From Batkoa obscura (lineage: Eukaryota), in NCBI GenBank assembly GCA_030770535.1, contig JASVEC010000001.1:1302001-1366000 (forward strand): 64,000 nucleotides of DNA, given 5' to 3'. Below, one piece after another: positions 11,361 through 23,931 of the stretch. Positions within the stretch are counted from its first letter, which is position 1; every line of letters starts with the position of its first letter. The notes under the pieces are model-generated. The model did not search any database. It worked only from the letters and a program-made list of their open reading frames with translations, and was not told where the DNA came from. The position numbers were made by a program, and so were the translations under genes.

Positions 11361-11570
11361 TTAACAATCGGCACCACAACAGCATCTACCCCAATCACAA
11401 TCTCCATTGATACCCCATTTTGAACTTCTTTCATTGTTTCCACAAGCATTTAAACAATCTTGATCAATAAGACATTGTCCAGTTTTAGAAGTACATCTTC
11501 TACAAATATCGGAACCAGCTACATAGAGAACAAAAAAGAGAACTAATAATAATTTGAAATTGTTGAGCAT
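11361..11570 (-). CDS. 10-Cys defensin-like secreted peptide, type A (copy 1)
   Basis: MLNNFKLLL signal peptide; mature CxxC..C-x5-C-x3-C..GxC-x4-CCC..C (CS-alpha/beta spacing with a GxC gamma-core). Start set by homology to the other copies. Confidence 0.88.
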   Translation of the reverse strand: MLNNFKLLLVLFFVLYVAGSDICRRCTSKTGQCLIDQDCLNACGNNERSSKWGINGDCDWGRCCCGADC

Positions 11571-12763
11571 TATGAGTATTCTAAAATAAGGGGATATAAT
11601 TAATTGTACTTGAATACTATAACTATGTTTACCTTCTAAAGTAATAAAATAAGTGTTTGTAAATATTGCTGATACTTTCATCCGCTATTTATACTACTTT
11701 TTACCAAAGATAAATCATATTTTTAACGTTGAAAATAACCCATAGTACCATGTTGGAATGTATTCTTTTTTGCTTACCTTAAAGCAAACTGCAATTAATA
11801 TCAATAACCTTTATAGGAATAGGATGTTAAAGCTTTTATCAGAAAACAAATTTCAATACCAATTTTTACTTAATTATGACAAAAATAAAATAATAGCTAG
11901 CTGTGTACTGTGAATGGTTAACCCATTTTATATTTTTGTTTACTTCTTGCACTTAGTTTTATTTTATTTTGACATGTTCATAACGTCAATTGGTGGAACA
12001 CACTTGGATATGACCCAATTTAGCTAATTATAGCACGGTGATTAATTAAAAAATAATCATAAGTTAGCTTGAAATTTAATCAAAAATTCAATTAAAGTGA
12101 TGTATTTAATTATACAAGAGTTAACTTTAATTACCGTTGTTATAAAATTAAATAAATTATTCTAGTAAATATCAGAAAGAGGAATTAGTGAATTTTTCAA
12201 CCACATACTGATCATGTAGAATACAATAACCGTGATTTCATTTAACGCTAAATTGGTTAATTATTTCATGATAAGCATCACCAGCTAAAAATGGTTTATT
12301 AATTGTTTCTAAACTATAATCATTATGAGAATTTCATAAATGTTAATATTACATAGGATTGTGTGTAAAAGATCTTTTTTTTGAACATTAGTTGGTTAAA
12401 ATTGCGTATTTAATATAAGCACTTTAATTTTGAACTCTATATTTAAAGCGATAACTTTGTAAAGGACAACTTAAATCAAAGTTATGATATTAATATTAAT
12501 GTTGACTATTATCAGTTAATAAAAAAGAAATCATTCAAAATCATTCTGCTCTGATTTATATCTATATTCTATCTATATTAGTATAAAAAAACAAAGCACA
12601 TCTTAATCTTGACCAAATAAGGATAATTATTATTAAGTATAAAGACAAATTGTTTATTTCGATAAATAGGGCTGGTCTGCTAATTTACTATGAAAATAAT
12701 ATAGTGTCATTTTTGACACTAAACAATAATATCAAAATAAACAAAAATGCGGTATCAGGTAGT

Positions 12764-12973
12764 TTAACAATCGGCACCACAGCAACACTTACCCCAATCA
12801 CAATCTCCATTGATACCCCATTTTGAACTTCTTTCATTGTTTCCACAAGCATTTAAACAATCTTGATCAATAAGACATTGTCCAGTTTTAGAAGTACATC
12901 TTCTACAAATATCGGAACCAGCTACATAGAGAACAAAAAAGAGAACTAATAATAATTTGAAATTGTTAAGCAT
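12764..12973 (-). CDS. 10-Cys defensin-like secreted peptide, type A (copy 2)
   Basis: Identical to copy 1 except R>K before CCC. Confidence 0.88.
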   Translation of the reverse strand: MLNNFKLLLVLFFVLYVAGSDICRRCTSKTGQCLIDQDCLNACGNNERSSKWGINGDCDWGKCCCGADC

Positions 12974-13031
12974 TTTGAATATTCTAAAGGAAAAGATGTT
13001 AATATTTTATAGCTCAAATGTTATAATTATA

Positions 13032-13604
13032 TTTACCTTGTACAGTAATAGAATTGGATTTAATGAATCTGATATCTACTTCTATACGCTATTTATACTA
13101 CTTTTTCGGAGATAGACGATCAACTTTGATAGTTTTAACGTTCAAACTTGACGCAAAGCCACACCATGACACGTTTATTTTGTTATGTTAGTTAAGCCAA
13201 CTGATATAACGATTTATTGTTTTAAATCCATAAGGGCAATAAAACTATTCTAAAGTATCGGTTTCAACACTCACTGTTATTTAATTATGACAATAAATAA
13301 AGTGATGAATAACTATGAACTGTAAGATAGTGTAATAGGATTTGTATTTGTTATTTTATTTTATTTTATTTAGTCCATTTAAGATTAATAAAAATTTCTA
13401 ACATAATAATAAGGATAATGTACACCCCTTGTCTTTGACACTAATGTTGATTAATGGAGTCAACCATGAGATAATTTAATTTAATTAGTTACAACCAAGT
13501 CAATCAATAAAGAAAGTAAGCAACAAGCAAATTAAAAGTATTTTTTTAAAAAGCTGGTCAATCAAATTAATTAGTGAATACAATCGTTATGGTTAATTTT
13601 ATGT
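13032..13604. repeat. Upstream region of peptide copy 2; inverted repeat of 23084-23655
   Basis: ~570-bp reverse-complement match with about 15 differences counted by eye, mostly distal. Confidence 0.9.
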
Positions 13605-13655
13605 ATTGTTATAAAATTACATCTCTTATCTTGAGTAATAACAAGGTAAATATAC

Positions 13656-14143
13656 GAGGGTATTTTTTTTGGCTTCATCACTTTTTCCATCTTTTAAGCG
13701 CTATTTGAGCGGAAAGGTTGCTAGTAAAATTCTTAAACACAAAAATACATCCCCATATATTAATTTCATTCTTATGAACTAGAAAACTTGTTTTCTATAC
13801 TCTGACAAAAAGTTGTACTTTTAACTAATTAAAGCATAATGATGAAAGTAAGAATTTTACTAACGATCTTTCCGCTGAAATAGCGCTTAAGAAATAGAAA
13901 AAGTAATGAAACCAAAAAACAGCCCCATTTGTTAATATAGCCAATAATTCTTAATTTCCTCACTATGCTTTAATTAGTTAAAAGTACAACTTTTTGTCAG
14001 AGTATAGAAAACAAGTTTTCTAGTTTATAAGAATGAAATTAATATATGGGGATGCATTTTTGTGTTTAAGAATTTTACTAACAATTTTTCCACTCAAATG
14101 TGCTTAAAAAATGGAAAAAGTTATGAAACCAAAAAACATCACC
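13656..14143. repeat. Fold-back structure: two inverted family-1 MITEs (13656-13754 -, 14048-14143 +) with duplicated inner flank and a partial MITE (13849-13926) in the loop
   Basis: 13755-13838 pairs with 13964-14047 (1 mismatch seen); MITE consensus at each position. Confidence 0.85.
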
Positions 14144-21356: not shown

Positions 21357-22495
21357 ATATAGAGTTGAGAATTGAGATATTTATCTAGAAACGGTTACTT
21401 TGATCAATTAAAATTTAGCTAAGTAGATTGTACTATTAATACTTACCAAATGTTTAATAAAGGAATATTATCGATACAAATAGTATATCGAGTTTCATGC
21501 TTAATAAATGAAGATGTTTTCTACCAATTGTCCTCTTTTTTGCTATTTTAGAATTTAGAAATTAATTAATCAGTATACTGTTCAAGCTTAGATATGTGCT
21601 AGCTAACTGTTCATTTTAAACAAAAATTAAATTAATAAGCCTCAAACTAGCATGATTGAATAAGTAGTCGGTTATAAAATTCATTTCCCAGCGCACATTT
21701 GAACTTAAACAGCTATATTATTAATTTAAATTTTTTAAAAACAGTAAAAGAATAATAGCTAAAAAAACATTGACAAATTTTGTTTATGATCTTACTGTAT
21801 TTTTTATTGAAATTATAAAAAAATAAATTTTAAACTAATATTCCTTTTATTACAACCCATCATAACTGTGTAACTGAGTAAATAAATAAATACCCCTTTA
21901 ATTGTCTATTAAAATATTGTACTTGCATTTTTATTAGAACACATAAATATTGAATTTGATGATACTATTTTTAGTCAGAAATTATTTTAATTACTTTGTA
22001 ATTCTTTATCAAATTGTAGCTATAATTAGCTAAATTAGAATACTTTAAAATGTTTCACCAATTGACATTATGAAATTGTTAAAATAAGTTAAATTAACCA
22101 AATGTGTTAAATCTATAAAAATCAAATAACTCATAGTTTTGTAGTTTACTATTCTTTGTTATTGCTATTATTTACTGTCATAGCTATATAATGATAGATG
22201 CCGAAATTCATTTATTAAATCATTTTTATTATTTCTTTAATTCCAAAACTATCAATCATAATACAAGCTAGCTTTATTAGAATAATAGTAAAAGTGTTAT
22301 TATTGTGGCTTTACATTCGATTTCGAATTTAAAACTGTCAACTTGATCATTTTTGTGTGAAAAAGCAGTATAAATACAGTATTGAAGTAGCGATAATAGT
22401 TATTGAGGGTTGATTTTATCATTGTAGAAGATATAATCATTTATAAAATATAAGATAATAAGCCTTAATAGTTCTTTTATTTTAGAATATTTAAA

Positions 22496-22711
22496 ATGTT
22501 TATCAATTTCAAATTATTATTAGTTCTCTTTTTTGTCCTTTTTGTTACTTCTGATATCTGTAGAAGATGTAATAAAAAAGGTGCTGTAGGTAGAACTTGT
22601 GTTGCTGATCACGAATGTGGAAATGCCTGTTCTGATTTTCCTAGTAGTCCAAAATGGGGTATCAATGGAGATTGTGATTGGGGCAGTTGCTGTTGTGGTG
22701 CCGACTGTTAA
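22496..22711 (+). CDS. 10-Cys defensin-like secreted peptide, type B (copy 7)
   Basis: Same scaffold; SSPKW variant. Confidence 0.88.
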   Translation: MFINFKLLLVLFFVLFVTSDICRRCNKKGAVGRTCVADHECGNACSDFPSSPKWGINGDCDWGSCCCGADC

Positions 22712-22986
22712 GCTTATAAAATGACATGCTTGTATATTTTACTATTTTAAAGTATCATAATAAACAACGCTAAACTGGTTTAATACTGGTTTATTAAACT
22801 AATTTTGTAAAAAAACAAATTTGATTTTTGATCTTTGATTTTTAATTTTTATATCAATATCACCCTTTAAATTATATTTAAATTTACTTTGATTATAGCA
22901 TTAATAACAATAACAGTTTATATTACATAGAAAATATTTTCTTATTATTCAATTTGAAAAAAAGTGTAGTTTAACAAACATTATAT

Positions 22987-23085
22987 GGGGATGTATTTTT
23001 TTGTTTAAGAATTTTACCAACAATCTTTCCACTCAAATAGTGCTTAAAAGATGGAAAAAGTAATGAAGTCAAAAAAACATCCCAC
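22987..23085 (+). mobile_element. MITE family 1
   Basis: Consensus match; abuts the repeat shared with copy 2. Confidence 0.9.
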
Positions 23086-23655
23086 ATAAAATTAACCACA
23101 GCAATTGTATTCATTAATTAATTTGATTGACCAGTTTTTTTAAAAAATACTTTTAATTTGCTTGTTGCTTACTTTCTTTATTGATTGACTTGGTTGTAAT
23201 TAATTAAATTGAATTATCTCATAGTTGACTCCACTAATCGACATTAGTGTCAAAGACAGGGGTGTACATTATCCTTATTATTATGTTAGAAATTTTTATT
23301 AATCTTAAATGGACTAAATAAAATAAAATAAAATAACAAATACAAATCCTATTACACTATCTTACAGTTCATAGTTATTCATCACTTTATTTATTGTCAT
23401 AATTAAATAACAGTGAGTGTTGAAACCGATACTTTAGAATAGTTTTATTGCCCTTATGGATTTAAAACAATAAATCATTATATCAGTTGGCTTAACTAAC
23501 ATAACAAAATAAACGTGTCATGGTGTGGCTTTGCGTCAAGTTTGAACGTTAAAACTATCAAAGTTGATCGTCTATCTCCGAAAAAGTAGTATAAATAGCG
23601 TATAGAAGTAGATATCAGATTCATTAAATCCAATTCTATTATTGTATAAGGTAAA
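23084..23655. repeat. Upstream region of peptide copy 8; inverted repeat of 13032-13604
   Basis: Reverse-complement match ending at the 5'UTR intron donor. Confidence 0.9.
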
Positions 23656-23715
23656 CATTTAATTTTATAATTTAAATATTAAATATTAATAACCATTTCC
23701 TTTAGAATATTTAAA

Positions 23716-23931
23716 ATGTTTACCAATTTCAAATTATTATTAGTTCTCTTTTTTGTCTTTTTTGTTACTTCTGATATCTGTAGAAGATGTAATAAAAAAG
23801 GTGCTGTAGGTAGAACTTGTGTTGCTGATTATGAATGTGGAAACGCCTGTTCCGATTTTCCTAGCAGTTCAAAATGGGGTATCAATGGAGATTGCGATTG
23901 GGGTAGCTGTTGCTGTGGTGCCGATTGCTAA
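23716..23931 (+). CDS. 10-Cys defensin-like secreted peptide, type B (copy 8)
   Basis: Same scaffold; ADYEC plus SDFPSS combination. Confidence 0.88.
   Translation: MFTNFKLLLVLFFVFFVTSDICRRCNKKGAVGRTCVADYECGNACSDFPSSSKWGINGDCDWGSCCCGADC

What the first reader, a model, noticed from the sequence alone, without database searches (positions are those of the whole stretch)
11361..23931. Head-to-head array of 10-cysteine defensin-like peptides
Seen: eight intact single-CDS genes (four on - then four on +, all pointing away from the centre) plus one pseudogene. Each encodes a signal peptide and a 49-aa (type A) or 52-aa (type B) mature peptide with no propeptide. Established: C-x5-C-x3-C...GxC-x4-CxC is the CS-alpha/beta cis-defensin signature. 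Seen: four extra Cys (N-terminal CxxC, the middle C of CCC, terminal C) give 10 Cys, and net charge counted by hand is about -1 (+2 for copy 3), unlike typical cationic antimicrobial defensins. Inference: a five-disulfide effector or toxin family (anti-insect, channel ligand or enzyme inhibitor) amplified for dosage. I do not recognise this family.
Basis: partly seen in the sequence, partly recalled or inferred. Interest (0 to 1): 0.88.

Follow-up and report, generated by a model that had tools for sequence, protein, structure and literature searches.

The report
Acidic ten-cysteine fungal defensin-like peptides
An insect-infecting type of fungus carries eight intact, transcribed copies of a small ten-cysteine peptide gene whose product is 86% identical to a peptide in a fungus of another phylum; it is likely a secreted, defensin-related weapon against competing microbes, but its fold and activity are untested.

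Summary
Observation confirmed. Eight intact genes (4 minus, 4 plus strand) and one broken copy encode a signal peptide plus a 49- or 52-residue peptide with ten invariant cysteines; net charge is -1 (+2 in copy 3). New here: a 5'-UTR intron, seen spliced in two public runs; a perfect 680-bp central inverted repeat; mosaic copies that point to gene conversion; purifying selection, with variation confined to one loop. Relatives were found only in Neoconidiobolus thromboides, in Lobosporangium transversale (another phylum: 42 of 49 mature residues identical, signal peptide 5 of 21) and in two metagenome proteins. Eight cysteines fit the plant/insect cis-defensin spacing, and the weak hits (Pfam AtDEF-like, sugarcane Sd5, drosomycin-like clusters) agree. 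But no family cut-off is reached, and two low-confidence AlphaFold models did not give the CS-alpha/beta fold. Best reading: a high-dose secreted anti-competitor (likely antifungal) peptide binding a conserved target (0.45). An insect toxin is less likely (0.17), given the homogenised copies and the near-identical peptide in a soil saprotroph (lifestyle recalled). Acidic, tandem fungal defensin-like peptides are already described; this ten-cysteine frame was not found in ten searches. New variant of a known kind.

The parts
11361..11570 (-). copy 1, type A precursor (20-aa signal + 49-aa mature); 5'-UTR intron 11581-11632; TATA box 11686-11693
12764..12973 (-). copy 2, type A; mosaic: promoter and exon 1 are 97-100% identical to copy 8 (type B), intron 100% identical to copy 6 (type A); intron 12984-13036
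   Evidence: a spliced contig of run X4 joins this type-B exon 1 to a type-A exon 2
14520..14735 (-). copy 3, type B, net +2 through two loop changes; intron 14746-14800
   Evidence: its own 3' flank (14401-14588) is in an X2 contig with 0 differences at depth 1736
16262..16477 (-). copy 4, type B, identical to copy 5
16248..17701 (.). perfect inverted repeat: 680-bp arms (16248-16927 and 17022-17701), 94-nt spacer; holds copies 4 and 5 with promoters, and ends about 14 nt past the stop codons
17472..17687 (+). copy 5, type B (19-aa signal + 52-aa mature); intron 17407-17461
19206..19415 (+). copy 6, type A; TATA box 19082-19089; intron 19143-19195
   Evidence: intron skipped with GT..AG ends in an X5 contig of a relative about 92% identical
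20494..20870 (+). broken copy (coding-like part about 20631-20841): no start codon at the equivalent place, three of ten Cys lost, a frameshift near 20790 and an in-frame stop
22496..22711 (+). copy 7, type B; promoter, exon 1 and intron only 51-73% like other copies but coding DNA 92-96% like copies 4, 5, 8; intron donor lost
23716..23931 (+). copy 8, type B; intron 23651-23705
13664..23094 (.). eight copies of a ~105-nt MITE-like element with GGGG...CCCC ends lie between the genes (13664, 13849, 14044, 15551, 18200, 20916, 21256, 22983); 22 hits in the whole window
   Evidence: enrichment inside the array is marginal, p=0.05

Best explanation
The array holds eight transcribed genes for a likely secreted ten-cysteine peptide, predicted to close five disulfides on a cis-defensin (CS-alpha/beta) scaffold and likely used at high dose against competing microbes, most likely fungi, by binding a conserved envelope target rather than by cationic pore formation. 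Steps: (1) shown: TATA box, short first exon, 5'-UTR intron, spliced transcripts. (2) Inferred from sequence rules: signal cleavage before D-I-C, no propeptide. (3) Inferred from spacing: three core bonds, an N-to-C-terminal bond as in plant defensins, and a fifth bond between the second Cys of the CxxC and the middle Cys of the CCC. (4) Inferred: the invariant Arg-Arg and the Asp/Trp hairpin (NGDCDW) form the fixed binding surface, and the loop after the helix tunes specificity. (5) Mosaic tracts shown, mechanism inferred: gene conversion between inverted and tandem copies keeps the coding parts alike, which preserves dose of one or two products.
For: Frame: C..CxxxC..GxC..CxC plus C7xxxC8, as defined for cis- and plant defensins (PMC5234102; PMC7432377). 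Weak look-alikes agree: Pfam AtDEF-like E=5e-4; best PDB hit of the mature profile is sugarcane defensin Sd5, E=0.015, 7 of its 8 Cys aligned; ESM Atlas features rank drosomycin-like first for both queries (0.83, 0.81) with termicin close behind, and 6 of 10 structure rows for the Lobosporangium model are CS-alpha/beta families (leads only). Transcription: spliced joints in X4 and X5; gene contigs at summed depth up to about 19,000 in X2, against 2.8-4 for identical silent pieces. Constraint: pN 0-0.041 against pS 0.07-0.27 among non-identical same-type copies. Mature 42/49 but signal 5/21 identical to Lobosporangium; mature 47/52 but signal 5/20 to a metagenome protein. Variation sits in the 8-residue post-helix loop (6 of 11 extra states in type A, p=0.013; 6 of 8 in type B, p=0.001; all 4 replacements in the X5 orthologue; the loop was chosen after seeing the alignment). 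In Sd5, loop L2 is the glucosylceramide-specific site (PMC7432377). Precedents: VdAMP3 wards off fungal competitors (PMC8670511); BbAMP1 suppresses cuticle bacteria (PMC10883574).
Against: No activity data. The gamma-core is net -1 to -2 in 12 of 12 rows, whereas a cationic gamma-core is the norm and antifungal potency correlates with positive charge (PMC7432377). Zytrisin-1, a fungal CS-alpha/beta peptide lacking the loop cation, had no antibacterial or antifungal activity (PMC5234102). Both AlphaFold models lack the last strand and match no defensin. No family cut-off is reached, all Atlas scores are under 0.9, and with the precursor profile a spliceosomal zinc-finger protein (RBM22, E=0.005) outranks Sd5 (E=0.37). 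Contig depth is a poor measure of expression, and the conditions of the runs are unknown.
Confidence: 0.45

Rival explanations
1. The peptides act on the fungus itself: a secreted or spore-surface signal or regulator of sporulation, germination or growth form, like defensin-derived regulators in Aspergillus.
For: Extreme conservation of the mature part with a free signal peptide fits a ligand for a fixed receptor. The acidic gamma-core fits loss of microbicidal action. Anisin-1 lost antibacterial activity and supports fitness of A. nidulans (PMC5234102). Gene-contig depth differs more than 100-fold between X1 and X2 of one study while the dispersed repeat has similar depth (weak hint of regulation).
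Against: Signals rarely need eight near-identical copies. A self-signal 86% identical across phyla yet missing from annotated intermediates is hard to explain.
Confidence: 0.2
2. One reading: an insect-directed toxin or effector (ion-channel ligand, digestive-enzyme or protease inhibitor, immune suppressor) secreted during infection.
For: The closest relatives are in N. thromboides, a generalist entomophthoralean. CS-alpha/beta scaffolds include channel toxins and enzyme inhibitors (PMC5234102). The top Atlas structure row is a Toxin_3 cluster at TM 0.58, though under the bar and including the signal helix. A polyA metatranscriptome holds a 105-nt piece identical to copy 6 (X3).
Against: Purifying, homogenising evolution rather than diversification. 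An 86% identical peptide in three tandem copies in Lobosporangium, a soil saprotroph by my recall. Asp at the GxC position where K-channel blockers have Lys (recalled). No scorpion-toxin Pfam match at E<=10 in 12 of 12 mature rows.
Confidence: 0.17
3. The defensin-like spacing is incidental and the peptide is a different disulfide-rich fold (helix-hairpin-helix, CxxxC pairing with CxxxC), or a secreted metal-binding peptide.
For: Both AlphaFold models place a helix over WGxCCCGAD (residues 40-43 in A, 43-51 in B) and a hairpin at the GIN-GDC turn. The C-terminus also reads CxxxC. Foldseek and VIA-align find no defensin at any useful score. Some plant defensins mediate zinc tolerance (PMC5234102).
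Against: Models are low confidence (pLDDT 62 and 66, pTM 0.40 and 0.48, 12 similar rows). Every sequence-level lead points to cis-defensins. An even, invariant count of ten Cys behind a signal peptide favours disulfides over metal ligation.
Confidence: 0.15
4. The central 680-bp palindrome (copy 4 or 5) is an assembly fold-back artefact, so the true count is seven.
For: The arms are 100% identical and no listed contig spans the spacer.
Against: The repeat stops about 14 nt past the stops and the flanks are distinct older paralogous sequence (70% alike; each also aligns to copy 8's flank). Another near-identical tract (copy 2/copy 8 promoter) is supported by a spliced X4 contig. It would not change the finding.
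Confidence: 0.1

Closest known systems
Plant/insect-type 8-Cys cis-defensins (gamma-thionin PF00304; drosomycin; sugarcane Sd5, PDB 2ksk)
   Same: Signal peptide then mature peptide of about 50 aa; eight of the ten Cys fit C1..C2-x5-C3xxxC4..GxC5..C6xC7xxxC8; nearest PDB sequence and Atlas leads.
   Different: Two extra Cys (CxxC and CCC); 14 residues between C4 and C5; net charge about -1 with an acidic gamma-core; Pfam score far below cut-off (best E 0.37); fold not confirmed.
Petunia PhD1/PhD2 five-disulfide plant defensins
   Same: Ten Cys; first extra Cys between C1 and C2 (PMC7432377).
   Different: PhD's second extra Cys lies between C2 and C3; here it lies between C6 and C7, so the fifth bond would be a different one.
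Fungal defensin-like peptides: malpisins (Mortierella alpina), fDEF6 of Mucorales, abisins, pyronesins, zytrisins
   Same: Tandem gene expansion with pseudogenes, members without propeptide, many acidic or neutral members, identical mature peptides differing only at silent sites (PMC4165938, PMC5234102).
   Different: Described with the six-Cys frame in the text I read. Zytrisins are highly variable between copies, whereas these are homogenised. The alignments are figures I could not see, so a shared ten-Cys member is not excluded.
VdAMP3 (Verticillium) and BbAMP1 (Beauveria): fungal defensins used against niche competitors
   Same: Secreted small CS-alpha/beta-type peptides of pathogenic fungi aimed at other microbes; VdAMP3 homologues are reported in Zoopagomycota and Mucoromycotina.
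   Different: VdAMP3 is described by six conserved Cys; neither came up in any of my homology searches. This is a works-like comparison, not membership.
Scorpion short-chain K-channel toxins and long-chain Toxin_3 (PF00537)
   Same: GxC-x4-CxC hairpin spacing (recalled); top but sub-threshold Atlas structure row.
   Different: No Lys at the GxC position; no Pfam toxin match; conserved rather than hypervariable.

Membership tests
cis-defensin (CS-alpha/beta) superfamily | Six-Cys frame C...CxxxC...C...CxC | tested here: met
   8 of 8 intact copies and 12 of 12 aligned rows; definition from PMC5234102
cis-defensin (CS-alpha/beta) superfamily | Gly two residues before the fourth core Cys (GxC) | tested here: met
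   G invariant in 12 of 12 rows; definition
cis-defensin (CS-alpha/beta) superfamily | Helix bearing CxxxC tied to the last beta-strand bearing CxC | tested here: inconclusive
   Helix over CxxxC is predicted in both models, but the last strand is modelled as helix; pLDDT 62 and 66; Foldseek 0 hits at E<=0.001 and VIA 0 hits at Z>=2 for both. The Atlas model of P0002 (pLDDT 0.58) has 6 of 10 rows in CS-alpha/beta families, all under the bar
cis-defensin (CS-alpha/beta) superfamily | Disulfide connectivity | not testable with these tools
   No coordinates or bonds are returned; needs MS mapping or NMR
cis-defensin (CS-alpha/beta) superfamily | Secreted precursor with signal peptide | tested here: met
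   19-21-residue hydrophobic N-terminus (KD9 3.2-3.7) with small -3/-1 residues in 4 of 5 precursors checked; P0006 fits with the cut one residue later. Rule-based, no SignalP
plant/insect-type 8-Cys defensins (PF00304) | C3xxxC4, C6xC7, C7xxxC8 spacing | tested here: met
   against PMC7432377 section 2
plant/insect-type 8-Cys defensins (PF00304) | Pfam gathering score | tested here: not met
   3 of 12 mature rows match at E<=10, best 0.37
plant/insect-type 8-Cys defensins (PF00304) | Net cationic peptide and cationic gamma-core | tested here: not met
   Mature net -2 to +2; gamma-core -1 to -2 in 12 of 12
AtDEF-like (PF25052) | Pfam gathering score of 25 bits | tested here: not met
   Best 20.7 bits for type A precursor; 19.2 for P0002; no match for the two type B window precursors scanned
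PhD1-type ten-Cys plant defensins | Extra Cys between C1-C2 and between C2-C3 | tested here: not met
   Second extra Cys is between C6 and C7
plectasin-type fungal defensins (fDEF1/fDEF2) | Propeptide between signal and mature peptide | tested here: not met
   No propeptide; definition in PMC4165938
fDEF6 / propeptide-less malpisins | Sequence clustering with rhimisins, rhidesins, malpisins | not testable with these tools
   Sequences are in figures; supplement text holds none. No Mucorales or Mortierella protein appeared
scorpion K-channel toxins | Lys at the x of GxC (functional dyad; recalled) | tested here: not met
   Asp in 12 of 12 rows

The most novel reading that the evidence does not exclude
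A five-disulfide peptide weapon that has moved horizontally between fungal phyla (Entomophthoromycota and Mortierellomycota), with both paralogous types kept almost unchanged under foreign signal peptides. It would kill competitors through an acidic, tryptophan-tipped hairpin on an unevolvable target, possibly on a helix-hairpin-helix scaffold that only mimics defensin spacing. That would be a new salt-tolerant, non-cationic antimicrobial scaffold.
Probability: 0.2. Interest if true: 0.75.

Novelty: new variant of a known kind. Interest (0 to 1): 0.52.

Why it matters
Small secreted weapons of entomophthoralean fungi are barely described, and annotation misses them: two of the four N. thromboides models found are fusions of neighbouring copies. 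A 5.3-5.6 kDa peptide with five predicted disulfides is directly synthesisable and testable. Its evolution is the reverse of the usual toxin or defensin pattern (mature part fixed, signal peptide free; general pattern recalled), which points to a conserved target and either cross-phylum transfer or very strong, old constraint. If it is antimicrobial despite an acidic gamma-core, it offers a non-cationic mechanism. The array is also a compact example of concerted evolution through inverted repeats in an early-diverging fungus.

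Tried and rejected
No whole genome is held for this window, so copy number elsewhere is unknown. P0008 (E=8e-5) is a 1473-aa protein of Cys-free repeats and was rejected as a chance hit. RBM22 hits come from two weak repeated CxxC stretches in an intracellular zinc finger; rejected as chance, but they show how weak the Sd5 hit is. 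No relatives were confirmed in metagenome contigs (310 pattern matches, 0 confirmed; DNA pattern 0), prokaryote genomes (301, 0) or viral contigs (0; 76, 0). The tree of 12 mature rows has 0 starred branches and cannot place Lobosporangium: it is sister to all Neoconidiobolus-like rows at 84/49, while type A + Lobosporangium as a clade is not rejected (AU p=0.26), so transfer and its direction are not shown. The row named Nt_P5B is the second half of P0004. The copy 3 'sig' and 'mat' rows are invalid (split-point error) and were not used. The longer copy 1 ORF (106 aa from 11681) was rejected: its ATG lies just behind the TATA box, reads through the intron, and is absent in copy 6. The broken copy had no contig cover in 4 of 4 runs, which proves nothing. 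An RGD-type or DxDG calcium motif was considered (recalled); neither matches exactly. Cleavage at the invariant Arg-Arg would leave nine Cys and was judged unlikely. Earlier scan findings: nothing returned in 3 look-ups. Complex prediction was not used, as no binding claim is made.

Full report
Observation. The eight genes are present as described, four on the minus strand then four on the plus strand. Type A (copies 1, 2, 6) gives a 49-aa mature peptide and type B (copies 3, 4, 5, 7, 8) a 52-aa one. All have ten Cys spaced C-2-C-6/9-C-5-C-3-C-14-C-4-CCC-3-C, with net charge -1 (+2 in copy 3). The pattern occurs 8 times in the window and 0 times in 30 shuffles. A ninth, broken copy lies at about 20631-20841: no start codon, three Cys lost, a frameshift and a stop.

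Gene anatomy. Each copy has TATAAATA 123-127 nt before the ATG and a 52-55-nt intron ending 10 nt before it, GT..AG in 7 of 8. A contig of run X5, from a relative about 92% identical, skips exactly this intron. A contig of run X4 joins a type-B first exon to a type-A second exon, which is the mosaic structure of copy 2. Runs X1, X2 and X4 hold pieces identical to the window. In X2 the gene contigs reach summed depth of about 13,600 (type B) and 19,000 (type A), while identical silent pieces have depth 2.8-4. These are assembled contigs, RNA status is a guess for X1, X2, X4, X5 and X8 (on record only for X3), and depth is a poor measure of level. I take them as showing spliced transcription, and as a hint only of high, regulated expression. 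I laid 6 of the 9 runs listed.

Array evolution. Copies 4 and 5 sit in a perfect 680-bp inverted repeat with a 94-nt spacer. The 3' flanks of all copies are only 55-71% alike, so the duplications are old, yet coding DNA within a type is 92-100% alike. Copy 2 has copy 8's promoter and exon 1 (97-100%) and copy 6's intron (100%); copy 7 has diverged flanks and a homogenised coding region. This patchwork points to repeated gene conversion (inference). Among non-identical same-type pairs pS is 0.07-0.27 and pN 0-0.041: purifying selection, not diversification. Replacements cluster in the eight residues after the helix (region chosen after inspection).

Relatives. Three word-indexed searches and one full HMMER scan of 1.84 billion representatives found seven real relatives. 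Four are N. thromboides models, two of them fusions of adjacent copies. One is a Lobosporangium transversale protein with three consecutive accessions on a 1.7-Mb contig. Two are metagenome proteins. The window is therefore likely from a Neoconidiobolus close to N. thromboides; 0 of 12 window proteins looked up are in the collection letter for letter. NCBI puts the two named species in different phyla. The Lobosporangium mature peptide matches type A at 42 of 49, more than type A matches type B in the same genome (33 of 49), while its signal peptide matches at 5 of 21. P0003 matches type B at 47 of 52 with a signal match of 5 of 20. Strong constraint on the mature part is thus shown. Whether the patchy range reflects transfer, or old descent with loss and poor annotation of small genes, is open: the tree does not decide, I had no fungal assemblies to search, and I ran no control on ordinary orthologues of the two species.

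What it is. Eight Cys match the plant/insect cis-defensin spacing and the GxC glycine is invariant. Weak hits agree: AtDEF-like at 20.7 bits against a cut-off of 25, Sd5 at E=0.015, drosomycin-like and termicin clusters at 0.80-0.83. None reaches a threshold, and a zinc-finger chance hit outranks Sd5 with the precursor profile. Two AlphaFold models (pLDDT 62 and 66) have the CxxxC helix but a helical C-terminus, and neither matches any PDB chain by Foldseek or VIA-align. The Atlas's own model of the Lobosporangium protein leans to CS-alpha/beta families, under the bar. The fold is therefore likely but untested. I call it cis-defensin-like and do not file it in any named family.

How it likely works. 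I commit to a high-dose secreted anti-competitor peptide, most likely antifungal, that binds a conserved envelope target (0.45). Reasons: the nearest leads are antifungal families (function of drosomycin and termicin recalled; PITDs called antifungal in PMC8877149); pathogenic fungi use defensins against niche microbes (VdAMP3; BbAMP1); homogenised copies suit dose; and a fixed mature surface shared with a non-entomophthoralean fungus suits a target that cannot evolve away. Against it, the gamma-core is acidic in all 12 rows, and a fungal defensin lacking the loop cation was inactive. Rivals are a self-acting regulator (0.2), an insect toxin or effector (0.17), and another fold or metal binding (0.15).

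Literature. Ten searches returned no title or abstract start describing this family. Defensin + Lobosporangium and the four-term Entomophthorales search gave 0 papers. Seen: PMC4165938, parts 1-2 of 3 and a supplement search; PMC5234102, parts 1-3 of 4; PMC7432377, passages and section 2; PMC8670511, abstract, passages and supplement search; PMC8877149, PMC11105155 and PMC10883574, passages only. Zhu 2008 and Hong 2023 were not read. Alignments in these papers are figures, and subscription papers are not held, so an earlier listing of a ten-Cys member is not excluded. Acidic charge, tandem copies, pseudogenes and lack of a propeptide are all described for fungal defensin-like peptides.

Verdict. 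A real, transcribed, apparently undescribed ten-cysteine variant of a known kind. Its unusual points are the cysteine frame, the cross-phylum near-identity under foreign signal peptides, and concerted evolution through inverted repeats. Interest 0.52.

Noticed in passing
window, 22 hits, e.g. 2713, 3407, 8091, 22983, 33635, 55008, 58112, 59457: A ~105-nt dispersed element with inverted GGGG...CCCC ends, mostly flanked by AT, MITE-like; it drew many of the 741-781 contigs laid per run in X1 and X2, so it is likely abundant genome-wide and in transcripts.
   Followed up: partly
window 13659-13856 and 13946-14143: A second, older inverted repeat (198-nt arms, 85%, 89-nt spacer) built from the MITE-like element; its spacer is about as long as that of the central palindrome.
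   Followed up: no
window 6871-7659 and 9314-10105 (minus): Two near-identical genes for a 232-aa Gly/Ser/Asn-rich protein with a signal-like N-terminus, in a 1091-nt duplication at 91% identity; no Pfam match for the copy scanned.
   Followed up: partly
window 4439-5080 and 6170-6715 (plus): Two secreted-looking proteins with a small CxxxC...CxxxC domain, a Ser/Thr/Pro-rich stalk and a hydrophobic C-terminus (GPI-anchor-like, inferred); no convincing Pfam match.
   Followed up: partly
P0004, P0005, P0001 (N. thromboides models): P0004 and P0005 join two neighbouring peptide genes into one model, and P0001 starts at an upstream ATG like the one behind copy 1's TATA box; likely annotation errors that hide the family.
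   Followed up: partly
P0006: A third, more distant type in N. thromboides (29 of 49 to type A, four Trp, net +2) has no counterpart in this window.
   Followed up: no
window 28255-29658 (-), 35173-36168 (+), 38912-44764 (+), 50834-51949 (+), 57071-57994 (+): Ordinary fungal genes: kelch-repeat membrane protein, GH18 chitinase-like, a 1950-aa ORF resembling 1,3-beta-glucan synthase (recalled, not scanned), old yellow enzyme, and a weak 7TM receptor match.
   Followed up: partly
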